Shown here: positions 31,531 to 42,156 of the stretch, one piece after another
Numbering within the stretch: position 1 is the stretch's first letter
Layout of the letters: each line of letters opens with the position of its first letter
Assembly (NCBI GenBank): GCA_902762505.1
Contig: CACWOQ010000004.1
Location: 2,953 to 66,952, forward strand
Direction of reading: 5' to 3'
Length of the DNA: 64,000 nucleotides
DNA from: an uncultured Ruminococcus sp.
GTDB taxonomy: Bacteria > Bacillota > Clostridia > Oscillospirales > CAG-272
Position numbers and translations under genes: made by a program
The notes under the pieces: generated by a model
Seen by the model: the letters and a program-made list of their open reading frames with translations, nothing else
Databases searched by the model: none
What the model was told of the DNA's origin: nothing

Positions 31531-32793
31531 TTGAAAAACATAATTCCGAAAGCCGCGGCGCTGATACTCGCCGCGCTGATAACGCTCACGTCATGCACCA
31601 CGGGCGGACCGGGCGACGTTACGACCGTGCCGGAACCCGTGACCGAGCCGGAAACGACGGCGGAGCAGACGGAAGAACAAACAGAGACCGAGGAGGAAAC
31701 AACAGTGGAAGAGACACCCGAAGTACCCGGCAGGGTCGAGCTTTATCAGCTCGCGCCCGAAAGCACGAGCCTTATGATGAGCTACGTCATAGTCACGCCG
31801 AACAAAAAGATCATCGTTATAGACGGAGGCATAGACGGTACCGGACTTGACGGAAAAACTTATATACCGGCGGCTGTAAGAGGCATACTCGGGCTTGCCG
31901 AGGGCGAATACTTTGAGATCGAAGCGTGGTTTTTGTCTCACGAACACAGAGACCATTTCAACGAGTTATCAAAGCTTCTCAAGGCTTATAAAGCCGAAGA
32001 CAACTACAAGATTAACAACTTCTATTTCGACTTTCCCGAGATCGGGACCGAATGGGACAGCAAGGCGGGCGCAAACGACTACGATCTGCCGAGGCTCGAC
32101 ACGCTGAAGAACGGGTTTGACAACTACTATTCGGTAAACGCATTCAACGGGATCACGGGGGCGGATATTCCCGCCGACAAATTCACAAAGCCCGAGGGCG
32201 CACAGCATTATTACTACGACCTTATAAACGGCGCCGTGATCAATGAAGAGGCGATAGAAAAAGGACTTACGATAGAAGTTGACGGCGTTTCGTTCCGCAT
32301 CCTTCTCACCTGGTGCAAGGATTCGAGATACGTAAACAGCACGTCGGTCATCATGCGTATGGAATACGACGGACACACCGTCCTCTTCCTCGGCGACTGC
32401 GCGTCAGACGAAAGCGACAGGCTTCTTGCGAAATACGCGCCCGAGGAAATGAGATCCGATTACGTTCAGATGGGTCATCACGGACAGGGCGGTCCCGACA
32501 AAAAGTTCTACGACGCCATAAACACGACCGATTCGATCCGCCTCTGGCCGACGCCGAGCTGGGTATGGAGCAACGCTCAGACTTACAGGATAGGCGACAC
32601 GAGATCGTGGGTCGGGCTTCCGTTCGAGGCGGCTGATTTCAAGGCGCAGGGACTCCTTGAGACCGGCATGGATTTCGTCGCGGGCCTTTACGCGAAATAC
32701 CCCCGCGGCAGGGTCGACAAGGTAAAGAACTGGACCGAAGAGGTCCTCTCCGGAATGCGCGTCGCGGTATTTGAAGAAAACGCCGCGAAATGA
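31531..32793 (+). CDS. MBL-fold metallo-hydrolase lipoprotein (ComEC-type beta-lactamase-like domain)
   Basis: TTG start with GGAGGA upstream. Lipobox LTSC. HxHxDH motif LSHEHRDHF, and later MGHHGQGG. Confidence 0.7.
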   Translation: MKNIIPKAAALILAALITLTSCTTGGPGDVTTVPEPVTEPETTAEQTEEQTETEEETTVEETPEVPGRVELYQLAPESTSLMMSYVIVTPNKKIIVIDGGIDGTGLDGKTYIPAAVRGILGLAEGEYFEIEAWFLSHEHRDHFNELSKLLKAYKAEDNYKINNFYFDFPEIGTEWDSKAGANDYDLPRLDTLKNGFDNYYSVNAFNGITGADIPADKFTKPEGAQHYYYDLINGAVINEEAIEKGLTIEVDGVSFRILLTWCKDSRYVNSTSVIMRMEYDGHTVLFLGDCASDESDRLLAKYAPEEMRSDYVQMGHHGQGGPDKKFYDAINTTDSIRLWPTPSWVWSNAQTYRIGDTRSWVGLPFEAADFKAQGLLETGMDFVAGLYAKYPRGRVDKVKNWTEEVLSGMRVAVFEENAAK

Positions 32794-32834
32794 CCGGGCA
32801 AAAGTGTAATTTAATAGAAAAAGAGGATAAAACC

Positions 32835-34238
32835 ATGAGCGAAAAAGAAAAATCCGCGGGCGAGCTGCTCAAAGAAAAGCTTGTCTACAAAAAGAAAAAC
32901 GTATTTGAAAAATGCCCCGAACAGACCGAGGCGGCGCTCGCCTACTGCGAGGATTACAAAAAATTCCTTGACAACGGCAAGACCGAGCGCGACGCCACCG
33001 CGTATTCGATCGGGCTTGCAAAGGCTCACGGCTTCCGTGAATACAAGCTCGGGATGAAGGTGAAAGCGGGAGACAAATTCTATTACGACAACCGCGGCAA
33101 GAGCCTTTACCTCTTCATCATCGGCTCCGAGGATATCGAAAACGGCATCGCGATCACGGCGGCGCACATCGACTCTCCGAGACTCGACATCAAAGCCAAC
33201 CCCGTATACGAGGCGGGCGGAATGGCGTTCATCAAGACGCATTACTACGGCGGTATCAAGAAATACCAGTGGACGGCGATACCGCTCGCAATACACGGCA
33301 TGGTAACTCTTTCCGACGGAAGCACGGTCGAAGTGAACATAGGCGAGGACGACAACGATCCGCTGTTCTACGTAAACGACATACTTCCCCATCTTGCGAA
33401 GGATCAGTATCAGAAGCACGTCGGCGACGCGATAGAGGGCGAACAGCTCAATCTGCTCTCCGGCAGCATACCGTTCGACAACGAGACGTCGGAGGCGATA
33501 AAACTCAACCTTCTGAAGCTCCTGAACGACAAATACGGAATGACAGAGTACGACTTCCAGGCGGCGGAGCTCTCCGCGGTACCTGCGTACAAGGCGCGCG
33601 ATATCGGTCTTGACAGGTCGCTTATCGCCGCGTACGGTCACGACGACAAGGTCTGCGCATATCCCGAGATCACGGCGATACTGAGCCTCGAGCATCCGAA
33701 GAAGACCGTAATGAGCATCCTCGCCGACAAGGAGGAGACGGGCTCAAACGGCAACACCGGCATGAAGACGAGCGCGTTCTGCGACATCATAGCCGATATC
33801 TCCGCATCGCTCGGGAAGAACGAGCGTATCGTCAGATCCAATTCAGTATGCCTGTCCGCGGACGTCGCGGCGGCGTACGATCCCAACTTCGCGGGAGCCT
33901 ACGAGATAAACAACTCCGCGCTGATCAACTCCGGTATAGCGCTCTGCAAATACACGGGCGCGCGCGGAAAGTCCGATACGAACGACGCCTCGGGCGAATA
34001 CGTCGGGAAGATCAGGAAGATATTCGACGACAACAACGTCGTATGGCAGTCCTGCGAGCTCGGCAAGGTCGATCAGGGCGGCGGCGGAACGGTCGCGAAG
34101 TATATTTCGGAAAAGAACATCGACACGGTCGACGTCGGCGTTCCCGTGATCTCCATGCACGCACCGTACGAGGTCGTATCAAAGTTCGACGTTTACAATA
34201 TGCACAAAGCTGTCGTCGCGTTCTACACGGCTGAATGA
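32835..34238 (+). CDS. M18-family aminopeptidase (aminopeptidase 1 / aspartyl aminopeptidase-like)
   Basis: ATG at 32835 preceded by AGAGGA. AAHIDSPRLDIK, THYYGGIKKYQW, YGHDDKVC, LADKEETGSNG and ISMHAPYE match the M18 metal-binding blocks. Confidence 0.8.
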   Translation: MSEKEKSAGELLKEKLVYKKKNVFEKCPEQTEAALAYCEDYKKFLDNGKTERDATAYSIGLAKAHGFREYKLGMKVKAGDKFYYDNRGKSLYLFIIGSEDIENGIAITAAHIDSPRLDIKANPVYEAGGMAFIKTHYYGGIKKYQWTAIPLAIHGMVTLSDGSTVEVNIGEDDNDPLFYVNDILPHLAKDQYQKHVGDAIEGEQLNLLSGSIPFDNETSEAIKLNLLKLLNDKYGMTEYDFQAAELSAVPAYKARDIGLDRSLIAAYGHDDKVCAYPEITAILSLEHPKKTVMSILADKEETGSNGNTGMKTSAFCDIIADISASLGKNERIVRSNSVCLSADVAAAYDPNFAGAYEINNSALINSGIALCKYTGARGKSDTNDASGEYVGKIRKIFDDNNVVWQSCELGKVDQGGGGTVAKYISEKNIDTVDVGVPVISMHAPYEVVSKFDVYNMHKAVVAFYTAE

Positions 34239-34243
34239 ATATG

Positions 34244-34281
34244 AAAACCGGGGCGGATCCGTCGATACCGCCCCGGTTTTT
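34244..34281 (+). terminator. Intrinsic terminator
   Basis: 13-bp stem AAAACCGGGGCGG / CCGCCCCGGTTTT with an 11-nt loop and a T tail. Confidence 0.8.
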
Positions 34282-34400
34282 CCGTCATCCGCCCTCCGAA
34301 ATTCGAATTTACAAAATGTTTACAAGAATTTCTGACACTTTTTCGTAAAAAACGTATATATATATGAAGAGCAAGCGCTTTTGATAAAAGAGGTATATTT

Positions 34401-34658
34401 ATGAAAAAAATCAGCAAAGCTACCGCTCTGAAGAAAACCGTCTCGCTGCTGCTTTCCTTTGTGATGATCCTCGTTATCATCCCCATCACCGCGGTGCACG
34501 CGGACGACGGTCCCGGGCTTGCGGTCACCGTTCTGGATGAAGATCAGCTTCACGATATAGCCGCAGAGAGCGCGGGAAAGCTGCCGGACGAGCTTTTGCA
34601 GCGCCTGTCCCTGCGCGATGCCGATATCCCGGAATCAATGAGTTCCACGGATATATGA
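34401..34658 (+). CDS. Signal-peptide fragment (85 aa), probably the N-terminus of the downstream gene cut off by an in-frame TGA
   Basis: MKKISKATALKKTVSLLLSFVMILVIIPITAVHA signal peptide. Same reading frame as 34737..36905, with no further stop between 34659 and 34736. Confidence 0.5.
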   Translation: MKKISKATALKKTVSLLLSFVMILVIIPITAVHADDGPGLAVTVLDEDQLHDIAAESAGKLPDELLQRLSLRDADIPESMSSTDI

Positions 34659-34736
34659 AACACGGAAGCGGTCGCCCGGCTCAAAGCCCGTGAAGACGGT
34701 CTTTCGTCGCTTGTATATGTAAACCGTGACGGAAAG

Positions 34737-36905
34737 GTGACGGAATACTTCTTTTCCGAGAACGTGAAGTACGAAAAAGAGGGAAACATATACGATAAAT
34801 CTAACCGCCTTACCGCGTCTGAAAAAACGGGCGGATATACAAACGAAGAGAATGACATAAACGTAACGCTGCCTTTTGAGCTGTCAAAAAGCAGCGGCAT
34901 AGAATTATCCTATAAGGATCACTTGATCGGATTCACACCTGTAAATAAAGACGACGGTAAAACGGCTGCAAAGCAGAGCACGGATGATACCGTAATATAT
35001 AAAAACGCTTTCGGCGAGGGTATATCGCTTGAATATACGGCGCAGTTCTCCGGCGTCAAGGAGAACGTGATAATAGCGCGTGATACGGGAGTATATGAAT
35101 ATGCGTTCGTGCTGAAAACACACGGCTTGTATCTCACAGCGGAAAACGGCGTTGTTCTTTTGCTTGATGAAAAGGGAGAAGAGATCGCGCAGATCGGCGG
35201 CGTGCTGATATATGACGAAAAAGGAAAGCCGGGCGAAGGCTCATTCAATGTAACGGAGCTTGTACCGGGTGAGGAATACGTATACACCGTTTCCGTGTCT
35301 GAGGCTTTTATGAAAAGCGATGATACGGCTTTTCCCGTTACCGTTGATCCGACAATTACATTTAATTCGTCATATCTGTATTATGATTCATCGCTGCAAG
35401 CGTTTTCGGGAGATTATACCCTGGACGCTGCGTGCCAATCTGTAAGCTTAGGACGCACCGGGACGTCAACTTATAAAAGAATGCTTATAAAATTCCCGAG
35501 TTTAACAACGGCGCTGAAAAAAATATCGTTCGATAATATCACAAGTATTAATCTGACGTTATACAGATCGAGTCCGTATGATTTTCAAACGATCAATTGT
35601 TACAGGATGACGAATTCCTGGTCAAGTACATCCGGATCAACAACTTCATCGGTATGGAACGGTTATGATCCCTCAAGCGTTGTAACGGGAAGCTTCTATA
35701 GTAATTGTAATTCCTGCTCGGTGAATATTAAAAGCATATGTGAGAAATGGATCGTAAATAATTACAGTGATTACGGTATAATGATCAAATTGCAGGATGA
35801 ATCGTTAAGCGGTCTGTCTTTGTATACAAAAGAAAATGCGAGCAGAAAACCCGTAGTCAGCATTTCATATACCATGCCTTCAAACATAGAAGACGTCGGA
35901 TTAAAAGAAAAACATCTATACAAGATCAAAAACACTTCTTCATTCAGTTATATCGGCTGTAACAGATCAAATTCAGGTACATATTCCGTATCTTTAAGCA
36001 CAACCGAACCGAGCGCATCATCGACCCTCGAAAACAGTGTGTATTTCGCTTTGTACAAAGACGGGAACAGTGGCTATTTCAAACTGACCCCGACAAATGC
36101 CAACTATAGGGGCAGCAAGGAATTATGGAATACCACTGAGATAAATTACTTGTATTATGACGGCAGCTCTGTAGGTATTTCAAGCAGTTATAACAACAGC
36201 AATAAATCAAGCTGGTACGTTGTAATGCATAACGACGGCAAATACTTTATATTGAACAGATACTATCCGAACATTGCCTTGAACTGGTTCTTAGGTAATC
36301 CTTCAGTTTCAACGGGCGAAGTTTCATTTAGCAGCTTGTCTCATAAATGGGAGTTCATCCCTGTCGGGCTTGATGTGCCGTTAATTCAACAAGAGCCAAA
36401 TTACTGCGGTCCTTGTTCAGTATTACAGGCAATAACATATAACGGAACTGAGAATCAAATTTGTAACAACCCGAACAATTACCAGAATCAATTGGCAATA
36501 AATATGAATACTGACTCAAGCGGGACAATCGTTGGCAAGGTTAAAGATGAGTTAAACAAGACGATTTATAACTTTCCTTCAACATTCAATAGTTACAGAG
36601 ACAACGTTATTAACAATACAAATAAGCTTAAAGAATATTGCCAGCATAGTTTAAACTTGCTATGTCCGGTTATCATTCAGGTTAAGCCATCAATTCTAGA
36701 TTATTATTCAAGTAATTATTCAAGCGATGGACACTATATTTGCTTGATTGGTATTGACGGAAATAACGCGATAGTAAGAGATTGTAATAATTCCGACTCG
36801 TATTTTGGTGAATTTGTTGTTCCTTTAAGTTCAGTATATGATGCCTCAACAAATTACTTTCCCCCCGATCATCCAACATATTCAAACTATATTATCTGCG
36901 CGTAA
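34737..36905 (+). CDS. Large multidomain protein: DNRLRE-like domain, beta-trefoil-like region and C-terminal papain-fold (C39-like) cysteine peptidase; lacks its own signal peptide
   Basis: The reading frame stays open upstream back to the TGA at 34656. The C-terminus has QQEPNYCGPCSVLQAI (Cys) and DGHYICLIGIDG (His), typical of the Peptidase_C39-like fold. WYVV and KWEFIP are QxW-like. Domain names are from motif memory. Confidence 0.5.
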   Translation: MTEYFFSENVKYEKEGNIYDKSNRLTASEKTGGYTNEENDINVTLPFELSKSSGIELSYKDHLIGFTPVNKDDGKTAAKQSTDDTVIYKNAFGEGISLEYTAQFSGVKENVIIARDTGVYEYAFVLKTHGLYLTAENGVVLLLDEKGEEIAQIGGVLIYDEKGKPGEGSFNVTELVPGEEYVYTVSVSEAFMKSDDTAFPVTVDPTITFNSSYLYYDSSLQAFSGDYTLDAACQSVSLGRTGTSTYKRMLIKFPSLTTALKKISFDNITSINLTLYRSSPYDFQTINCYRMTNSWSSTSGSTTSSVWNGYDPSSVVTGSFYSNCNSCSVNIKSICEKWIVNNYSDYGIMIKLQDESLSGLSLYTKENASRKPVVSISYTMPSNIEDVGLKEKHLYKIKNTSSFSYIGCNRSNSGTYSVSLSTTEPSASSTLENSVYFALYKDGNSGYFKLTPTNANYRGSKELWNTTEINYLYYDGSSVGISSSYNNSNKSSWYVVMHNDGKYFILNRYYPNIALNWFLGNPSVSTGEVSFSSLSHKWEFIPVGLDVPLIQQEPNYCGPCSVLQAITYNGTENQICNNPNNYQNQLAINMNTDSSGTIVGKVKDELNKTIYNFPSTFNSYRDNVINNTNKLKEYCQHSLNLLCPVIIQVKPSILDYYSSNYSSDGHYICLIGIDGNNAIVRDCNNSDSYFGEFVVPLSSVYDASTNYFPPDHPTYSNYIICA

Positions 36906-36930
36906 AAATCATCATAATGGAGGATGCAAA

Positions 36931-37605
36931 ATGAATTATGTAAAAAAAGCAGTAATATGCTTAGTTTCCATTACAATAGTATTGTCTGTCGCGTGTTGTG
37001 CATACGAAACGACGAATAAATATGACGGCAGCATAAAATGTGCGTTTCAACTATATCTGGTGATGTATCAGGATTGTGCAAATAAGCCATATGTTGAAAA
37101 TACTGACATAAGTATTGACGCTGATACGGAAGACTACGGAAAATGTAAAGCGTGGGAATTCACAGAGGATCTGTCAACTCCCGAAAAATTCAATGATTAT
37201 ACGTCGTCATTCTTTGACGATAACGTTTCCGCAAAGGCTTTTCATGAAACGATGTATCTTAAACTGATTGACGGAAAAATCGTATTGCTTGAGTTAGGAC
37301 CGCAATATATACCGTTTCAATATGACGAATCTGCGAAAACTTACATCATTGCAGAAACAGATAATACAATAACTTTGAAACGTGCAATCCTGCATATTAA
37401 CGGAAATGGCGACAGATCTCAAATTGATTACACCTTTATAATAAATAAAACAAATCAAAAAATCTGCGGAGGCACATTTGTTGAAAAAATGCTTGAAATC
37501 GATGCCGACACCCCTCAAACCTCCGACGCGCCAGTGATCGCTGTATGTGCTCTGACGCTTTCCGCCGCGGCGGCAGCGGTGCTGATAAAGAAGAAAAAAG
37601 TCTGA
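36931..37605 (+). CDS. Small surface (lipo)protein with a C-terminal TPQTSD sorting-signal-like tail
   Basis: ATG at 36931 with GGAGGA upstream. Signal/lipobox LSVACC. C-terminus DTPQTSDAPVIAVCALTLSAAAAAVLIKKKKV. Confidence 0.6.
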   Translation: MNYVKKAVICLVSITIVLSVACCAYETTNKYDGSIKCAFQLYLVMYQDCANKPYVENTDISIDADTEDYGKCKAWEFTEDLSTPEKFNDYTSSFFDDNVSAKAFHETMYLKLIDGKIVLLELGPQYIPFQYDESAKTYIIAETDNTITLKRAILHINGNGDRSQIDYTFIINKTNQKICGGTFVEKMLEIDADTPQTSDAPVIAVCALTLSAAAAAVLIKKKKV

Positions 37606-37752
37606 CCCGTGCCGTTCATCATATACGACAAGAACGCGGCGCACGTGATAGAGCCGGCGGACGATTACGGTCTGTCGAACGTAGCCGCCACCGTCACCGA
37701 GCTTCTCGGTCTTACGCCGGATCCCGTATGGCAAAGAAGTATGCTGAAATAA
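37606..37752 (+). pseudogene. 48-codon C-terminal relic of an alkaline-phosphatase-superfamily (metalloenzyme/phosphodiesterase-like) gene
   Basis: Directly in frame after the TGA of the preceding gene: PVPFIIYDKNAAHVIEPADDYGLSNVAATVTELLGLTPDPVWQRSMLK*. GC-rich like the host, and followed by its own terminator. No start codon and no N-terminal part. Confidence 0.5.
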
Positions 37753-37755
37753 GTC

Positions 37756-37780
37756 AACGGGGAACTCTGTTCCCCGTTTT
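37756..37780 (+). terminator. Intrinsic terminator (belongs to the relic gene)
   Basis: AACGGGGAAC-TCT-GTTCCCCGTT then TT. Confidence 0.65.
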
Positions 37781-37900
37781 CCGTCAAAAAAGCGAATTTA
37801 CATAAAATTAACAAGAAAAAACGACACTTTTCGGGTGTTTTTTACGTTTATATAAGTGAGCGAAAAAACCAAAATTATAATGCAGCAAGGAGAATGCAAA

Positions 37901-38713
37901 ATGAAAACCAAAAGAATTGTCTCGCTGGTCCTTTCAGTCATAACGCTTTTTTTGACATTACCGTCCTTTTCCGTTGCAACCGATGGATTGACCATATCTG
38001 AAGCGGCGAGGCTTGTTCGCGGATTTGAAGAAGCATATCTTATGACTGTCGAGTCAAACAAGGCGCCTCTTTTCTGGCAAAAGGATAAAAACATAAGTTT
38101 AAGCTACGAATACCGATTATCGAATGACAATCCGCAGTATGAGGCAGACAACGTTGAAAGCGGCGCCAAGTTATATATGTGCATAATGGAAACGTATGAC
38201 GAACTCCTGCAAAAACTGAAGCTTACGTTTACCGACGAGATGTCGAAAAAGATACTGAACGACAGTCGGTTCATCTATATCGACGGTAAAGCATATTATC
38301 CGAGAATCTTTTTCGACCCCGGTAATTTTTACGTTATTTCCGACGATGAGAATACCGAGGTTCCACTTGAAGAGCGTATTACGATTGTTGATAACGGAGA
38401 CGGTAGGTATACCGTTCATTACAACTATTGGGCGCCTGTCGAGGATGATAATGAAAACCATAATTCTGACAAATGGCTGTTATCCGATGCAAGAGACGGT
38501 CAAATAGACATCGTAAAAACAGACGACGGATTCAGAGTGTATAAGTATGACGGACTGTTATTCAAATCCGATCCTTTAGCGGACAGAGGCTTACGTAAAA
38601 CGCGTTTATTGAGCGAATCCCCTCAAACCTCTGACGCGCCGGTGATCGCGGTATGCGCGCTGGCGCTTTCCGCCGCAGCGGCGGCAGTCGTTCTTCGGAA
38701 AAAGCGCGGCTGA
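37901..38713 (+). CDS. Small secreted surface protein with a C-terminal SPQTSD sorting-signal-like tail
   Basis: ATG at 37901 with AAGGAGAA upstream. Signal peptide ...LPSFSVA. C-terminus ESPQTSDAPVIAVCALALSAAAAAVVLRKKRG. Confidence 0.6.
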   Translation: MKTKRIVSLVLSVITLFLTLPSFSVATDGLTISEAARLVRGFEEAYLMTVESNKAPLFWQKDKNISLSYEYRLSNDNPQYEADNVESGAKLYMCIMETYDELLQKLKLTFTDEMSKKILNDSRFIYIDGKAYYPRIFFDPGNFYVISDDENTEVPLEERITIVDNGDGRYTVHYNYWAPVEDDNENHNSDKWLLSDARDGQIDIVKTDDGFRVYKYDGLLFKSDPLADRGLRKTRLLSESPQTSDAPVIAVCALALSAAAAAVVLRKKRG

Positions 38714-38726
38714 GACAAAATAACGG

Positions 38727-38759
38727 CAGACCGGGGTCATCCCGGTCTGTTTTGTGTTT
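38727..38759. terminator. Terminator between convergent genes
   Basis: CAGACCGGG-GTCAT-CCCGGTCTG then TTTTGTGTTT. Confidence 0.7.
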
Positions 38760-38765
38760 ACAGCT

Positions 38766-39620
38766 TTACCCGACGGTGCCCTGAAGCGTTATGACCGCCG
38801 TTCCCGGGACGACCGACGCCGAACCGTCCGGATTCTTCGTGAACTGAGCCGCGGGAACGGTTATAACGCCATCGCCCGTCTCGAACACTCCCGTCTGCGC
38901 GGAATAAGTGTACTGTCCGCCCTCTGTCCACGGAGCGCCGTTGTACGTCACGGAAAGGTCCGTCAGCACGGGCTGAACCGTATCGGTTATCACGGCGTTT
39001 TCACCGGCTCCGGCTTCCGCGTTGCCGTAGTTTTCGATCGTCAGCGTGTACGTGATGCTCTCGCCGGGCGATACCGTCAGCGGATCGAGCGTCTTCGACA
39101 CGGTGAGCACCGGTCCCTCCGTCACCGGGAGCGTATGCTCCGCCGTCACCGGCTGCGTAAGCTGCGCGCCGGTCAGGGATACTGTATTGACTATCGCGCC
39201 CGACGCCTGCAAAGGAGCGAAGCCGTTGACGAGCGCCGTGTATATGACCGTCGCTCCGCCGTTTCCGGGAACGTCTATCCCGGTGACCGTCAAAGGCGAC
39301 GTCTCCGTCACCGTGACGTCCGTCTGACGGACGCCGTTTTCGAGCACGAGCAGCGATCCCTCCTCGTATCCGAGAGGATAAAGAAGACCGCCCGGGCCTT
39401 CGTACGCGCCGAGATCGTCTTCAAGCGTCAGATCCGCAAGCGGCGCCGAGCACGTGTTTTGAAGCGTAACGATATACGTTATCCTGTCGCCCGAAGCGTA
39501 GGACTGCTGAAGCGACGTCTTTGCCGCGCTCAGACTTTCGACGATCTGTCCGGTCGTCGTATTTGAAAGCACCTGCGTGCCTCCGTACGTCAGAACAGCC
39601 TGGTTTGTGAATGTTGCCAT
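38766..39620 (-). CDS. DUF11 (conserved repeat domain) protein, two repeats, no signal peptide
   Basis: Preferred start is ATG 39620 (MATFTNQAVLTYGG...). LTVSKTLDPLTVSPGESITYTLTIENYGNAEAG is a typical DUF11 repeat core. The longer listed start adds a hydrophobic, unlikely extension. Confidence 0.6.
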   Translation of the reverse strand: MATFTNQAVLTYGGTQVLSNTTTGQIVESLSAAKTSLQQSYASGDRITYIVTLQNTCSAPLADLTLEDDLGAYEGPGGLLYPLGYEEGSLLVLENGVRQTDVTVTETSPLTVTGIDVPGNGGATVIYTALVNGFAPLQASGAIVNTVSLTGAQLTQPVTAEHTLPVTEGPVLTVSKTLDPLTVSPGESITYTLTIENYGNAEAGAGENAVITDTVQPVLTDLSVTYNGAPWTEGGQYTYSAQTGVFETGDGVITVPAAQFTKNPDGSASVVPGTAVITLQGTVG

Positions 39621-39786
39621 AAGTAAAATATTCCTTTCCGCGGTGCGTTTTCCCGCACCGTTACCATTATATGATGCAAAATTCAGCATTGATACAACTG
39701 TTTTTGCATCAATACTCTTGCTTTTTTCAAAAAAACGCGGTATAATCAATAATAGTATACAACTTTGTAAAGGAAGGAACACATAC

Positions 39787-42156
39787 ATGGCAGAAAACAA
39801 CAGACCCAACGGCAGGCAGAGAAACGTGACCGGTCAGGGTACCGGCGGTTACCGCCGCGGCGAAGGGCTCGGCACCGGACCCGTAGGCAATCAGAACGGT
39901 TATTCCGGCAGGACCGGTACCGGCGGAGGCGGCGGAGGTCAGACCACGCGCGCGTCCGGCGGTATGGGAAAAATAATCGGTATCATAATAGCCGTCGTTG
40001 CGGTGCTTGCGGGCGGAGGCGGACTTTCCCTTTCCGGAGTTTTGAATAACTTCCTCGGCGGCGGCACGCAGACGACGACGGACACCTCGGCTCTGACAAG
40101 CCTTCTGTCCGGCTTCACCTCGTCCAACGTATCGACCGGCTGGACAGACAGCGGCTCGAACAACACCGTAAAACCCGTAAACACGAGCGTTGCGAAGGGC
40201 GCGCGTGAAAAATACACGACTGTCATCGGCGGCGGCAAGGACGTCGTCACGCTCATGGTGTATATGTGCGGTACGGATCTCGAATCCAAGTACGCGATGG
40301 CGAGCAAGGATATGCAGGAAATGGCTGCCGCCTCGCTGTCGGACAAAGTCAATATTATCATCTACACGGGCGGCTGCTCGCAGTGGCAGACGAAAGGGAT
40401 AAGCAACACCGTCAGTCAGATCTATAAAATAGAGAACGGCGGACTCAGGCAGCTCGTCGCGGACGACGGCAAAAAAGCGATGACGGATCCCGCCACGCTC
40501 ACCTCGTTCATAAAATACTGCAGCGAAAACTATCCCGCCAACAGATATGATCTCATCATGTGGGACCACGGCGGCGGAACGACCGGCGGCTTCGGCTACG
40601 ATCAGCTCTTCTCAAACAAAGGCGCGATGGGCATAGCCTCCATCAACACGGCGCTCAAAAACGCGGGCGTGAAATTCGACTTCGTCGGCTTTGACGCGTG
40701 TCTGATGGCAACGGCGGAAAACGCTCTCATGCTGACCTCCCACGCGGACTATCTCATAGCGAGCGAGGAGACGGAGCCGGGCGTCGGCTGGTATTACACC
40801 AGATGGCTCACCGAGCTTTCCAAAAACACCTCTCTTCCCACTACGACCGTCGGTCAGATGATCGTAGACGATTTCGTCGACACCTGCAACAAGCAGTGCA
40901 AGGGTCAGAAAACGACGCTTTCCCTGATCGACTTAGCCGAGCTTCAGGAAACCGTCCCCGAAAGCCTCAATGAATTTGCAAAATCGACGACAGCCCTCAT
41001 AAAGGCTGACGATTATCAGGTCGTTTCGGACGCGAGATCGAACACGCGTGAATTCGCGACGTCGTCAAAGCGCGACCTCGTAGACCTCGTGCATCTTGCG
41101 CAGAATATGAACACGAAGGAAGGCAAAGCCCTTGCCGACGTGATCCTTTCCGCGGTAAAATACAACCGTACCTCATCCGAGATGACGAACTCCTACGGTA
41201 TGTCGATCTACTTCCCGTACAACAGCACGAACAAGGTTGACACCGCCGTATCTCAGTACAACGCGATAGGCATGGACGGCGATTACGCCGAGTGCATCAG
41301 ACAGTTTGCGGCGGTGGAATCCGCGGGTCAGCAGGTTTCCGCGGCGAACGGCGGCTCCTCCTCCCCGATCTCCTCCCTGCTCGGCAACTTCGTATCGTCC
41401 GGCACGCAGTCGACCGATATGATCTCCTCCCTGCTCGGAAGCTTTCTCGGCGGCTCCTCCGCCCGTGATTCCGAGTACCTGCAGGTTCTCGACAGCGGCG
41501 CGGCGGCTTCCTACATCGCCGGACATCAGTTCGACACGTCCAATCTCCGCTGGAAGATCTCCGGCAGCAAAAAGGTCATGGCGCTCGATATCGAGCAGTG
41601 GAAGCTCGTCAACGACCTTGAGCTCAACGTATTCATCGACGACGGCGAGGGCTTCATCGACCTCGGTCTTGATCCCGTGTTCGAATTTGACGAGGACGGA
41701 TCACTCATAGGCGAATATGAAGGCACGTGGATGGCGATAAATAATCAGATCGTCGCATCGTATCACGTCGACACGACTTATATAAACAACGGCAATTACA
41801 GATACACGTACAGGATCCCCGTAATGCTCAACGGTCAGCGCGCGGATCTTATCGCCGTGTTCGATAACGAGACTCCGGACGGCTACGTTGCCGGCGCGAG
41901 GATCGACTACAGAAACGGCGAGACGGAAGCCGAAGCGAAGCTTACTCAGCTTCAGGACGGCGACGTTATAGACTTTCTGTGCGATTATTACAAATACGAC
42001 GGAACGTACAGCGACAGCTATATGTTCGGCGAACGGCTCACCGTTAACGGCGCGCTTTCCGTAAGCGACGTATATCTGCCCGCGGGCACAAAGACGAGCG
42101 CGGTATACCGCTTCACCGACATCTACGGTCAGACTTACTGGACGCCCGAAATGTGA
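39787..42156 (+). CDS. Clostripain-family (C11) cysteine peptidase, type II membrane topology with a Gly/Arg-rich cytoplasmic N-terminus
   Basis: ATG at 39787 (AAGGAAGG upstream). One TM helix, IIGIIIAVVAVLAGGG. MVYMCGTDLES...IIYTGG...LIMWDHGGG...FVGFDACLMAT...LIASEETEPGVGWYY are C11 His/Cys blocks. Confidence 0.8.
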   Translation: MAENNRPNGRQRNVTGQGTGGYRRGEGLGTGPVGNQNGYSGRTGTGGGGGGQTTRASGGMGKIIGIIIAVVAVLAGGGGLSLSGVLNNFLGGGTQTTTDTSALTSLLSGFTSSNVSTGWTDSGSNNTVKPVNTSVAKGAREKYTTVIGGGKDVVTLMVYMCGTDLESKYAMASKDMQEMAAASLSDKVNIIIYTGGCSQWQTKGISNTVSQIYKIENGGLRQLVADDGKKAMTDPATLTSFIKYCSENYPANRYDLIMWDHGGGTTGGFGYDQLFSNKGAMGIASINTALKNAGVKFDFVGFDACLMATAENALMLTSHADYLIASEETEPGVGWYYTRWLTELSKNTSLPTTTVGQMIVDDFVDTCNKQCKGQKTTLSLIDLAELQETVPESLNEFAKSTTALIKADDYQVVSDARSNTREFATSSKRDLVDLVHLAQNMNTKEGKALADVILSAVKYNRTSSEMTNSYGMSIYFPYNSTNKVDTAVSQYNAIGMDGDYAECIRQFAAVESAGQQVSAANGGSSSPISSLLGNFVSSGTQSTDMISSLLGSFLGGSSARDSEYLQVLDSGAAASYIAGHQFDTSNLRWKISGSKKVMALDIEQWKLVNDLELNVFIDDGEGFIDLGLDPVFEFDEDGSLIGEYEGTWMAINNQIVASYHVDTTYINNGNYRYTYRIPVMLNGQRADLIAVFDNETPDGYVAGARIDYRNGETEAEAKLTQLQDGDVIDFLCDYYKYDGTYSDSYMFGERLTVNGALSVSDVYLPAGTKTSAVYRFTDIYGQTYWTPEM

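What the first reader, a model, noticed from the sequence alone, without database searches (positions are those of the whole stretch)
34700..38620. Low-GC island whose boundary falls inside a gene
Composition drops sharply inside the large gene, from roughly 35.3 kb, and stays low through the two small downstream genes. My hand counts of single 60-nt lines give 25/60 G+C at 36481-36540 and 17/60 at 36661-36720, against 33/60 at 33001-33060 in the flanking M18 gene. Two short host-like GC-rich patches interrupt the island, at 37505-37780 and from about 38610 onward. The 5' third of the large gene has intermediate composition, which suggests a chimeric gene whose 3' two-thirds (beta-trefoil-like and C39-like peptidase parts) were acquired by recombination. 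No integrase, transposase or flanking direct repeats were found.
Basis: seen in the sequence. Interest (0 to 1): 0.6.

Follow-up and report, generated by a model that had tools for sequence, protein, structure and literature searches.

The report
AT-rich swappable toxin–inhibitor cassette locus
The low-GC stretch is real and is the exchangeable payload of a secreted peptidase "toxin" gene (knocked out here by a stop codon) and two surface-anchored inhibitor-like genes, in an uncultured rumen bacterium; this is a new variant of a known kind of bacterial warfare locus, not a classical genomic island.

Summary
Window 35300-38300 has 39% G+C against 53.4% genome-wide, which puts it in the lowest 0.5% of 3-kb windows. 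GC3 is 0.27-0.46 against a genome median of 0.68. The deficit lies mostly in codon choice, not in amino-acid content.

The large gene is a recombination mosaic, but the provable breakpoint is at 36386, right after a conserved VGLDVPLI motif. Two near-identical alleles from other samples carry unrelated C39-like peptidase domains from that point on. The GC step near 35.3 kb is a family trait, seen in all six homologues compared.

The "GC-rich patches" are two things:
- two copies of a conserved NPxT[S/A]D sorting-signal module;
- a 48-codon relic of gpmI with its terminator.

A congener (G006) has an empty M18-DUF11 site. The closest relative (G009) has only one small gene there.

The locus looks like a Sec-secreted polymorphic toxin. 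It has a WapA-type head, a middle region that may be a lectin, and a C39-like warhead, followed by IseA-family candidate inhibitors. Function is inferred, not shown. An in-frame TGA (CGA in an intact allele) recurs in at least 8 independent assemblies, so the toxin gene is probably dead.

The parts
32790..34238 (+). M18 aminopeptidase gene. Left flank, with host-like composition (G+C 0.546, GC3 0.745).
   Evidence: PF02127 E=6.7e-83 and NF002600 at 609.6 bits. Present in all 12 genomes of the genus.
34270..34400 (+). Terminator-promoter 'handle A' upstream of the large gene. Shared by several paralogous loci.
   Evidence: 90.5% identical to the G009 M18 locus, 91.6% to the G009 gpmI locus and 91.7% to the unrelated locus L041. 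It forms direct repeat D2 with 37781-37831.
34401..34658 (+). 5' part of the large gene: signal peptide plus linker, 85 codons, ending in an in-frame TGA at 34656-34658. GC3 is host-like (0.67).
   Evidence: Translation. The intact allele in L025 has CGA (Arg) at this codon, a single C-to-T change. The TGA is present in 8 independent metagenome assemblies that are 99.7-100% identical.
34659..35351 (+). Conserved N-terminal domain of the large protein. Intermediate composition (G+C 0.47, GC3 0.52). It ends at the motif PVTVDP.
   Evidence: This is the best-conserved part of alignment A1. Together with the next part it matches the N-terminal regions of DNRLRE / DUF6531 (WapA-Rhs type) proteins on Firmicutes plasmids.
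35352..35880 (+). DNRLRE (CBM96-like) domain. It contains two hypervariable or gene-converted patches, at about 35318-35540 and 35615-35840.
   Evidence: NF033679 at 42.9 bits, above the cut-off of 34. Identity to L025 drops to 81-83% in the two patches, between blocks of 97-100%.
35880..36362 (+). Middle domain. It may be beta-trefoil or lectin-like, but this is unconfirmed.
   Evidence: No Pfam match. BLASTP gives only motif-level resemblance to the RicinB region of P0011. More distant hits of the same search (P0011-P0018) carry RicinB domains, and in P0015 the RicinB domain follows CBM96, the same relative position.
36363..36386 (+). Junction motif VGLDVPLI. It is the recombination breakpoint for swapping the C-terminal domain.
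   Evidence: VGLDVPL is invariant in all 7 aligned domain variants (A2) and in the 6 full-length homologues (A1). DNA similarity to L025 ends at 36385 and to L042 at 36386.
36387..36905 (+). C39-like papain-fold peptidase domain. It has the lowest GC of the gene (0.35). Conserved Gln 36390-92, Cys 36405-07, His 36732-34 and Asp 36780-82.
   Evidence: PF13529 at 40.8 bits, above the cut-off of 24. Q, C, H and D are invariant in A1 and A2. Weak profile and fold matches to papain-fold and C39 structures.
36931..37605 (+). Small gene 1, 224 aa. It has a lipobox-type signal peptide, an AT-rich IseA-like body, and an NPxTSD-type sorting tail. It starts 25 bp after the large gene.
   Evidence: ORF and ribosome-binding site read in the sequence. 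PF16800 E=0.027, below threshold. The family profile A3 matches IseA/YoeB structures. Homologues of 37-84% identity exist.
37506..37580 (+). Sorting-signal module, copy 1. GC-rich.
   Evidence: Direct repeat D1, 85% identical to 38614-38688. About 20 proteins of this genome end in the same type of tail. Weak match to NF033846 Rumino_NPXTG.
37606..37752 (+). A 48-codon 3' relic of gpmI (cofactor-independent phosphoglycerate mutase). It sits in frame directly behind the stop codon of small gene 1.
   Evidence: 80% amino-acid identity to the end of the full-length gene in L025. The relic plus its terminator (37606-37790) is 97.8% identical in DNA to the gpmI 3' end of G006. The full-length gene is present in 10 of 11 congeners.
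37756..37778 (+). Intrinsic terminator inherited with the gpmI relic. It probably ends the transcript of the large gene and small gene 1.
   Evidence: Terminator scan.
37781..37831 (+). Promoter 'handle B' upstream of small gene 2.
   Evidence: Direct repeat D2 with 34292-34342. Over the first 59 nt of 37781-37905 it is 88-90% identical to the region downstream of gpmI in G004 and G006. It lies within the 87 bp (37744-37830) deleted in strain variant L018.
37901..38713 (+). Small gene 2, 270 aa. It has a signal peptide, an AT-rich IseA-like body and an NPxTSD-type sorting tail. It is homologous to the gene that follows the intact toxin allele in L025.
   Evidence: PF16800 E=3.5e-4, below threshold. 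It aligns with the 277-aa gene of L025.
38614..38688 (+). Sorting-signal module, copy 2. Start of the right-hand GC-rich flank.
   Evidence: Direct repeat D1. Similarity to the G009 M18 locus resumes at 38620.
38725..38751 (.). Bidirectional terminator between small gene 2 and the convergent DUF11 gene.
   Evidence: Terminator scan, found on both strands.
38766..39809 (-). DUF11-repeat protein gene. Right flank, host-like composition. The coordinates are those of the open reading frame.
   Evidence: PF01345 and TIGR01451. In G006 it lies about 0.5 kb from M18.

Best explanation
The low-GC stretch is the exchangeable payload of a polymorphic-toxin-like locus in an uncultured rumen Clostridia bacterium (order Oscillospirales by the names of its relatives).

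The locus is built from GC-normal, conserved 'handles':
- a terminator-promoter-signal-peptide module;
- the VGLDVPLI junction;
- a sortase-type NPxT[S/A]D tail module.

Between the handles lie AT-rich, fast-turning-over modules:
- the lectin-like middle of the large protein;
- its C39-like papain-fold peptidase 'warhead';
- the bodies of IseA-family surface proteins.

Homologous recombination at the handles, between paralogous loci (downstream of M18, downstream of gpmI and elsewhere) and between related species, swaps the modules. This produces compositional boundaries that fall inside genes.

Inferred function:
1. The large protein is exported by Sec.
2. It binds target-cell surface glycans through its DNRLRE (CBM96-like) and possibly lectin-like domains.
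3. It cuts peptide bonds in the cell envelope of competitors.
4. The wall-anchored IseA-like proteins encoded just downstream block the peptidase on the producer's own surface.

In this strain a CGA-to-TGA nonsense mutation separates the signal peptide from the rest of the protein. The toxin is therefore most likely inactive, while the inhibitor genes remain intact.

Shown: the composition, the mosaic structure, the breakpoints, the empty site and the domain assignments. Inferred: toxicity, the target, and inhibition by the small proteins.
For: Composition is real and lies at the codon level.

Module swapping:
- L025 is 94.3% identical and L042 is 99% identical up to 36385/36386. Beyond that point they carry unrelated C39-like domains of 36-41% amino-acid identity.
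- Against L025, similarity resumes only in the tail module.

Variable locus:
- G006 has an empty site.
- G009 has a single small IseA-like gene between the same handles.
- Other congeners have different genes after M18.

Trace of a second locus:
- The gpmI relic with its terminator is 97.8% identical to G006 gpmI but only 82% to G009, although G009 is the closest genome at M18.
- In L025 the intact gene sits directly behind a full gpmI.

Architecture typical of polymorphic toxins:
- The N-domain plus DNRLRE head is shared with WapA/Rhs-type toxins.
- A Tox-PL-C39 toxin domain and RicinB adhesion domains are described for such systems (PMC3482391).
- The catalytic Q/C/H/D residues are conserved.
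- Distant relatives and in-genome paralogues carry other C-terminal enzymes: a lipase-like domain (P0014), Amidase_2 (P0017), and HExxH and CHAT-like domains with weak support.

A small IseA-like gene starts 10-33 bp after the large gene in all 4 loci where the downstream DNA is visible, and its body differs each time.

IseA affinity of the small proteins:
- 8 of 14 family members hit PF16800, and one passes the curated cut-off.
- The family profile hits IseA/YoeB structures at E=4.5e-8 and 3e-4.
- Precedent: IseA inhibits NlpC/P60 papain-fold endopeptidases, and the IseA-fold protein Tai3 is the immunity protein of the peptidoglycan-cleaving effector Tae3 (PMC12700454).

The genome has one sortase and about 20 proteins with this type of tail.

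Other low-GC islets of the genome also hold conflict genes: three paralogues of this family, an Rhs C-terminal end, type I restriction-modification specificity subunits, and unannotated proteins that look like defence genes.
Against: - No activity, target or inhibition has been tested.
- The window's own small proteins score below the PF16800 cut-off (14.8 and 21 bits against 29.9).
- hhalign against a single IseA sequence gave only 6% probability.
- A Foldseek search with a fairly confident model of small gene 1 (pLDDT 77) did not find IseA.
- The C39 model is of modest quality (pLDDT 63) and its fold matches are weak, with TM about 0.45.
- Small IseA-like genes often occur without any large gene. 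They may simply be a family of surface proteins.
- No orphan C-terminal toxin cassettes were seen.
- Only four toxin/small-gene pairs could be examined, which is too few for a co-variation test.
- Why the payload stays AT-rich is not explained by recombination alone.
Confidence: 0.6

Rival explanations
1. This is a classical horizontally acquired island. One recent transfer from a low-GC donor lineage brought 35.3-38.6 kb and fused it in place to a resident gene at about 35.3 kb.
For: The composition deviates strongly and at the codon level. The interval is missing from G006.
Against: - The same GC gradient along the gene is present in all six homologues compared, from several organisms with about 54% GC flanks.
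- No breakpoint lies at 35.3 kb in the comparison with L042, which is 99-100% identical across that position.
- The proven breakpoint is at 36386.
- No low-GC donor turned up in 5.8 billion proteins, plasmids or phages. The only close relatives are rumen metagenome sequences with the same locus structure.
- There is no integrase, tRNA gene or att-like repeat.
Confidence: 0.08
2. This is not a conflict system. The large protein is a secreted, glycan-targeted protease used for nutrient acquisition or for remodelling the cell's own surface. The IseA-like anchored proteins regulate the cell's own autolysins. The AT-richness reflects AT-biased mutation with weak selection on rarely expressed accessory genes.
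For: - IseA itself is a housekeeping regulator of autolysins (PMC12700454).
- The small genes are common without a large gene, and they sit at conserved positions behind gpmI or M18 in most congeners.
- Carbohydrate-binding modules are typical of digestive enzymes in rumen bacteria (PMC9971899, listed).
- The nonsense allele appears fixed in this near-clonal population (99.7-100% identical assemblies), so the gene is dispensable.
Against: - C-terminal domain swapping at a fixed junction among 94-99% identical alleles is unusual for metabolic enzymes.
- A differing gene follows tightly in 4 of 4 loci, which also fits a paired inhibitor better.
- The head is shared with WapA-type toxins.
- Paralogues and relatives carry lipase, amidase and metalloprotease warheads.
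- Small-gene bodies are only 20-35% identical between congeners whose M18 is 82-96% identical in protein.
Confidence: 0.25
3. Assembly artefact. The contig is a chimera of two organisms or two loci (the M18 locus and the gpmI locus), and the TGA is a sequencing error.
For: The genome is a 102-contig metagenome-type assembly of about 90% completeness that lacks a full gpmI. Contigs of relatives often break right after M18 or gpmI.
Against: The same arrangement, including the TGA, the gpmI relic and both flanks, was assembled independently in 8 samples by different assemblers at 99.7-100% identity.
Confidence: 0.02

Closest known systems
Polymorphic toxin systems with Tox-PL-C39 papain-like toxin domains (Zhang, Aravind et al. 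2012, PMC3482391)
   Same: - A conserved N-terminal trafficking and adhesion region.
- A variable C-terminal enzymatic domain, swapped at a conserved junction.
- A small gene immediately downstream that changes with the toxin domain.
- Sec-dependent export and lectin-type adhesion domains, both of which that survey lists for such toxins.
- A C39-like Cys/His/Asp peptidase as the warhead.
   Different: - No Rhs/YD repeats, filamentous stalk or dedicated secretion system.
- The candidate immunity proteins are sortase-anchored IseA-family proteins, not the Imm-SuFu type listed with Tox-PL-C39.
- No orphan toxin cassettes were seen.
- Toxicity is untested.
WapA-type Sec-dependent Rhs toxins of Firmicutes (B. 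subtilis WapA; S. suis WapA-CT1, PMC12704120)
   Same: A signal peptide, an unnamed N-terminal domain and a DNRLRE surface domain at the head. tblastn hits to plasmid-borne DNRLRE/DUF6531 proteins cover residues 1-385.
   Different: The Rhs cage, LysM repeats and the PreT-CT toxin are absent. A roughly 160-aa domain that may be lectin-like and a C39-like peptidase follow the head directly. The protein is about 830 aa, against about 2300-3200 aa.
IseA (YoeB) of Bacillus subtilis and the IseA-fold immunity protein Tai3 (partner of the T6SS peptidoglycan endopeptidase Tae3)
   Same: These are secreted proteins of about 160-180 aa that block papain-fold or other cell-wall endopeptidases. The small genes here match the IseA family profile (PF16800; PDB 8wt4, 2rsx, 8i2e) and sit next to a papain-fold peptidase gene, as Tai3 sits next to Tae3.
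   Different: - Here they carry a C-terminal NPxT[S/A]D sorting signal and would be wall-anchored.
- They form a multi-locus, hypervariable, AT-rich family with conserved promoter and tail modules.
- The similarity is marginal for the two proteins in the window.
- The partner enzyme is C39-like, not NlpC/P60 or Tae3.
Bacteroides fragilis T6SS effector BtaeB, C-terminal domain with immunity protein BtaiB (PDB 9jdd, 9jg8; chains named 'Peptidase C39-like domain-containing protein')
   Same: It is a precedent for a C39-like domain used as an antibacterial effector paired with an immunity protein. It gives a weak profile match (E=0.05-0.14) and a weak Foldseek match to the domain here.
   Different: It is delivered by a type VI system in a Gram-negative bacterium. 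Sequence similarity is marginal, and the immunity protein is unrelated as far as could be seen.

Membership tests
Polymorphic toxin system | Alleles share a conserved N-terminal region but carry unrelated C-terminal domains joined at a conserved junction. | tested here: met
   L025 (94.3% identical) and L042 (99% identical) diverge completely from 36386 on. VGLDVPL is invariant in all 7 aligned domain variants.
Polymorphic toxin system | A cognate immunity gene lies immediately downstream and changes with the toxin domain. | tested here: inconclusive
   A small IseA-like gene starts 10-33 bp downstream in 4 of 4 loci, and its body differs each time. Four pairs are too few, and protection is untested.
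Polymorphic toxin system | The C-terminal domain is toxic to competing cells. | not testable with these tools
   Only the conserved catalytic Q/C/H/D residues could be shown.
Peptidase_C39_2 (PF13529) / papain-fold cysteine peptidase | Profile match above the curated cut-off, with the catalytic Cys and His (plus Gln and Asp) present. | tested here: met
   40.8 bits against a cut-off of 24. Q, C, H and D are invariant.
Peptidase_C39_2 (PF13529) / papain-fold cysteine peptidase | Papain-like three-dimensional fold. | tested here: inconclusive
   The AlphaFold2 model has pLDDT 62.9. The best full-length Foldseek matches are papain-fold proteins (Alr0975, PeiR, 3erv, 9l5u) at TM 0.44-0.48 and E of 1e-3 to 1e-2.
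IseA/YoeB DL-endopeptidase inhibitor family (PF16800) | Profile match above the curated cut-off of 29.9 bits. | tested here: not met
   Small gene 1 scores 14.8 bits and small gene 2 scores 21.0 bits. The gene at the same locus in G009 scores 30.1 bits, and 8 of 14 family members hit at E<=0.1.
IseA/YoeB DL-endopeptidase inhibitor family (PF16800) | Homology to, or fold similarity with, solved IseA structures. | tested here: inconclusive
   The family profile against PDB gives 8wt4 at E=4.5e-8 (that alignment includes the signal peptide) and 2rsx and 8i2e at E=3e-4. hhalign against one IseA sequence gives 6% probability. Foldseek does not return IseA.
WapA / Rhs toxins | DNRLRE-type N-terminal surface domain. 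| tested here: met
   NF033679 at 42.9 bits against a cut-off of 34. tblastn matches to DNRLRE/DUF6531 proteins.
WapA / Rhs toxins | An Rhs/YD-repeat shell enclosing the toxin. | tested here: not met
   No Rhs or YD match in Pfam or NCBIfam. The protein is only about 834 codons long.
Classical genomic island or integrative element | An integrase or transposase, insertion next to a tRNA gene, and att-type flanking repeats. | tested here: not met
   Every ORF in 34.2-38.8 kb is accounted for and none is a recombinase. No tRNA gene lies in 28-46 kb. The repeats present are gene modules, not att sites.
Sortase-anchored surface proteins (NPXTG type, NF033846) | A tripartite C-terminal signal (motif, hydrophobic stretch, basic tail) recognised by the family model, and a sortase in the genome. 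| tested here: inconclusive
   The tripartite layout is present, but the motif is NPxT[S/A]D rather than NPXTG. The model scores 17.4-18.4 bits against a cut-off of 23.5. There is one sortase gene, at C24:5311-5802. About 20 proteins carry the tail.

The most novel reading that the evidence does not exclude
Rumen Oscillospirales carry a multi-locus cassette system. A conserved promoter/signal-peptide module and a conserved NPxT[S/A]D anchor module act as recombination handles. Between them, AT-rich IseA-fold inhibitor bodies are shuffled within and between species, and sometimes whole Rhs-less WapA-type peptidase toxins are shuffled too. This would give each strain a wall-anchored 'immunity repertoire' against secreted cell-wall peptidases. 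It would be the first link between sortase-anchored IseA-family proteins and Sec-secreted C39-like toxins.
Probability: 0.35. Interest if true: 0.6.

Novelty: new variant of a known kind. Interest (0 to 1): 0.42.

Why it matters
It shows that a compositional boundary inside a gene need not mark a one-off foreign insertion. Here it marks the edge between conserved recombination handles and fast-exchanged payload modules of a conflict locus. That distinction is useful for reading other "low-GC islands" in metagenome-assembled genomes.

If the functional inference holds, it would add three things:
- a compact, Rhs-less, Sec-dependent class of Gram-positive antibacterial peptidases;
- a wall-anchored IseA-fold immunity family in the rumen microbiome;
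- a set of natural peptidase/inhibitor pairs for studying how the IseA scaffold evolves new specificities.

It is not a finding that overturns anything. Polymorphic toxins, C39-like toxin domains and IseA-fold immunity proteins are each already known.

Tried and rejected
- **Donor search.** Word-indexed searches of 5.8 billion proteins, with the whole protein and with the C39 part alone, gave only rumen metagenome relatives and no low-GC donor. Plasmid and phage collections gave only distant matches to the N-terminal head.
- **Related loci.** The search for related loci with alignment A1 found nothing in the species-representative genomes and one locus in the JGI metagenomes.
- **Structures by sequence.** A PDB sequence search with the whole large protein found nothing.
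- **Beta-trefoil label.** Pfam scans of 35880-36365 and BLASTP against a RicinB-bearing relative gave no significant match.
- **IseA fold.** Foldseek with the small gene 1 model returned no IseA; the top hit was RsiV at E=0.12 over only 44 columns. hhalign against one IseA sequence was weak.
- **Defence systems.** PADLOC gave no match.
- **Insertion target.** No tRNA gene was found.
- **TGA as recoding.** I considered selenocysteine, Trp or a different genetic code. I rejected this because the intact allele has CGA (Arg), the genome's other genes read normally with table 11, and there is only one such codon. Read-through was not tested.
- **Re-initiation at GTG 34737.** I consider this unlikely, because no properly spaced ribosome-binding site precedes it (read in the sequence).
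- **Reads.** Read-level polymorphism at the TGA and expression could therefore not be examined.

Full report
**1. Observation**

The composition profile shows G+C of 0.55-0.60 in the M18 aminopeptidase gene. It falls stepwise to 0.43-0.49 at 34.75-35.35 kb and to 0.32-0.41 at 35.35-37.45 kb. A peak of 0.54 follows at 37450-37749, then 0.39-0.45 up to 38.6 kb, and above 0.6 from 38.65 kb.

The window lies on contig C4 of a 2.64-Mb assembly of 102 contigs with 53.4% G+C. Only 0.49% of all 3-kb windows in that assembly are as AT-rich as 35300-38300, which has G+C 0.394.

Third-position G+C is 0.27-0.46 in the island bodies, against a median of 0.68 for 1480 long ORFs. If the island's proteins were encoded with the host's codon usage, their DNA would have 48-51% G+C. 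The observed values are 35-42%. The anomaly is therefore mainly synonymous. The left edge is graded: it begins at about 34.7 kb and steepens at about 35.3 kb.

**2. Anatomy**

*The large gene*
- It really starts at 34401, with a signal peptide.
- It is interrupted by one in-frame TGA at 34656-34658 and then continues in frame to 36905.
- An intact 828-aa allele (P0002) has Arg (CGA) at that codon.
- Eight independent metagenome assemblies, 99.7-100% identical to the window, all carry the TGA. It is therefore a genuine nonsense mutation that appears fixed in a near-clonal population, not a sequencing error.

*Domains of the large protein*
- A conserved N-domain.
- A DNRLRE (CBM96-like) domain: NF033679 at 42.9 bits.
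- A middle domain of about 160 aa whose beta-trefoil nature I could not confirm.
- A Peptidase_C39_2 domain: PF13529 at 40.8 bits, with invariant Gln, Cys, His and Asp.

*The two small genes*
- Small gene 1 is 36931-37605. Small gene 2 is 37901-38713.
- Each has its own ribosome-binding site and a signal peptide. In small gene 1 the signal peptide is of lipobox type.
- Each has an AT-rich body and a GC-rich tail of the pattern xPQTSD, then a hydrophobic stretch, then a basic end.

- 37506-37580 and 38614-38688 are an 85%-identical direct repeat that encodes the tail.
- 37606-37752 is a 48-codon relic of gpmI (cofactor-independent phosphoglycerate mutase), followed by its terminator at 37756-37778.
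- A second direct repeat, 34292-34342 with 37781-37831, is the terminator-promoter region upstream of both the large gene and small gene 2.

**3. Relatives and synteny**

Record titles of the nearest genomes place the organism among uncultured rumen Clostridia. They read 'uncultured Ruminococcus sp. RUG...' and 'Clostridia bacterium RGIG...' from cattle, yak, buffalo and goat rumen.

The region downstream of M18 varies within the genus:
- In G006, the M18 stop codon and the DUF11 gene are about 0.5 kb apart, with nothing resembling the island between them. This is an empty site.
- In G009, the closest genome (M18 96% identical in protein), similarity to the window runs up to 34413 and resumes at 38620. 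In between lies one 236-aa gene with the same tail. This gene passes the Pfam cut-off for the IseA DL-endopeptidase inhibitor family, at 30.1 bits.
- Other congeners have unrelated genes after M18.

All congeners with a detectable gpmI have it full-length. In five of the nine whose downstream DNA I fetched (G004, G006, G007, G009 and the locus L025), a small tail-bearing gene or the large gene follows it. The assembly studied here has only the relic.

Contigs of several relatives end just after M18 or gpmI. That is what strain-variable regions do to metagenome assemblies.

**4. Recombination**

- Locus L025 reads gpmI, terminator, promoter, intact large gene, 277-aa gene. It is 94.3% identical to window 34270-36385. 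It then shows no similarity until the tail module at 38621-38713.
- Locus L042 is 99% identical over 34719-36386. It then continues with a third C39-like variant.
- Both breakpoints fall at the last codon of the invariant VGLDVPLI motif, 36363-36386. The C39-like variants are only 21-41% identical to one another.
- Inside the DNRLRE domain, two patches (about 35318-35540 and 35615-35840) drop to 81-83% identity against L025, between blocks of 97-100%. These are gene-conversion tracts or hypervariable loops.
- The gpmI relic plus terminator is 97.8% identical to G006 and 93% to G004, but only 82% to G009. At M18, however, G009 is the nearest genome: 88.7% DNA identity, against 85.0% for G006. 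So the relic's affinity conflicts with that of the flanks. Because this genome's own gpmI is not assembled, I cannot say whether the relic was imported or copied from within the genome.
- Handle A (34270-34400) is 90-92% identical to promoters at three different loci. The tail module is 93% identical to one at an unrelated locus, L041. This points to concerted evolution of the handles.

**5. Why the boundary is inside the gene**

In all six full-length homologues, G+C and GC3 fall in the same order: signal peptide, then N-domain, then middle, then C39. The C39-like domain is always lowest, at GC 0.34-0.37 and GC3 0.27-0.34.

Where flanks are visible, they have host-like G+C of 0.54-0.56 in L026 and 0.48-0.52 in L040.

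Three paralogues in this genome are likewise sharp AT-rich islets among GC-normal genes. They are C41:1366-4104, C6:53637-56408, and C19:21602-24889 with a 26%-GC lipoprotein gene behind it.

The gradient is therefore a trait of the family. The more often a module is exchanged, the more AT-rich it is. It is not a scar made in this genome. I found no low-GC donor.

Why the payload stays AT-rich is not settled. One possibility is AT-biased mutation with weak codon selection and little homogenisation with the core genome. This rests on general knowledge, not on a test done here.

**6. Function (inferred)**

- The head (N-domain plus DNRLRE) matches the N-terminal regions of DNRLRE/DUF6531 proteins. 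That is the WapA/Rhs type of Sec-dependent polymorphic toxin, in which this part is thought to bind the cell wall (PMC12704120).
- C39-like papain-fold toxin domains (Tox-PL-C39) and RicinB adhesion domains are catalogued in polymorphic toxins (PMC3482391).
- Weak profile and fold matches of the domain include C39 peptidases, a pseudomurein endoisopeptidase, a papain-like toxin/immunity pair and a Bacteroides T6SS C39-like effector.
- More distant proteins found with the same query carry lipase-like or Amidase_2 domains. The paralogues in this genome have HExxH and CHAT-like C-terminal ends, but with weak support.
- A small IseA-like gene follows the large gene by 10-33 bp in all four loci where this can be seen, and its body differs each time.
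- The IseA assignment rests on three results: 8 of 14 members hit PF16800; a family profile matches the IseA/YoeB structures; and the motif layout is shared. It is weakened by a poor hhalign score and by the absence of any Foldseek hit.
- IseA blocks NlpC/P60 papain-fold endopeptidases by occupying their catalytic groove. The IseA-fold protein Tai3 is the immunity protein of the peptidoglycan endopeptidase effector Tae3 (PMC12700454).
- A sortase gene and about 20 proteins with this tail exist in the genome.

The most likely mechanism is therefore a secreted, glycan-guided cell-envelope peptidase with wall-anchored cognate inhibitors. In this strain the nonsense codon detaches the signal peptide, and no good ribosome-binding site precedes the next start codon. 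The toxin is probably dead, while the inhibitor genes persist.

**7. Rivals**

- A one-off island from a low-GC donor is contradicted by points 4 and 5.
- A non-conflict role remains possible, as a digestive or self-remodelling protease with autolysin regulators. The small genes are widespread on their own.
- Misassembly is excluded by eight independent assemblies.

**8. Verdict**

This is a new variant of a known kind (polymorphic toxin/immunity locus), with modest general interest and a useful lesson about intragenic compositional boundaries.

Earlier notes from this scan on the same window had flagged the TGA, the tail module, the relic and the effector/inhibitor idea. I reached the first three independently before reading those notes, and I tested them here.

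Noticed in passing
whole assembly G000; window 37606-37752: The assembly contains no full-length gpmI (cofactor-independent phosphoglycerate mutase), only the 48-codon relic. Ten of 11 congeners have the full gene. It may lie in the roughly 10% of the genome that is unassembled, perhaps because its variable downstream region breaks contigs.
   Followed up: partly
G000 C19:21602-24889 and C19:24954-25589; C41:1366-4104; C6:53637-56408: Three paralogues of the large protein share the same head but have different C-terminal ends: HExxH metallopeptidase-like, CHAT/caspase-like (weak support), and one unassigned. Each is a sharp low-GC islet (G+C 0.35-0.40). The C19 copy is followed by a 211-aa lipoprotein gene with only 26% G+C.
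   Followed up: partly
L018 (ERZ1039645), equivalent to window 37744-37830: One otherwise near-identical strain has an 87-bp deletion. It removes the end of the gpmI relic, the terminator, and part of the promoter handle upstream of small gene 2.
   Followed up: no
L042, equivalent to window about 35.2 kb: A 99%-identical allele with a third C39 variant has a 1-bp frameshift near the codons for IYDEKGKPGEG. This is either a second independent inactivation of the gene or an assembly error in an A-rich run.
   Followed up: no
L026 4221-5963; L123 1887-3630; also L027-L030: In a related lineage, the large gene is preceded by an ECF sigma factor, a DUF4367 anti-sigma-like protein and a conserved 146-aa secreted protein. 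None of these is present in the window. In L026 the cassette lies upstream of an M18 aminopeptidase gene, not downstream.
   Followed up: no
phage record MT835475.1, 21906-22703 (hit H9): A human faecal phage contig encodes a 34%-identical match (E=1e-22) to residues 4-264 of the large protein, the N-domain.
   Followed up: no
window 35318-35540 and 35615-35840: Two patches inside the DNRLRE domain are only 81-83% identical to L025, while the surrounding DNA is 97-100% identical. They are candidate diversifying binding loops or short gene-conversion tracts.
   Followed up: partly
G000 C7:51131-52303; C9:4797-6008; C7:65315-66493; C33:21757-23535; C7:71987-75424: The other lowest-GC genes of the genome are an Rhs-type C-terminal end, two type I restriction specificity subunits, and large unannotated proteins that look like defence genes. 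AT-richness appears to mark the conflict and accessory gene pool of this organism.
   Followed up: no
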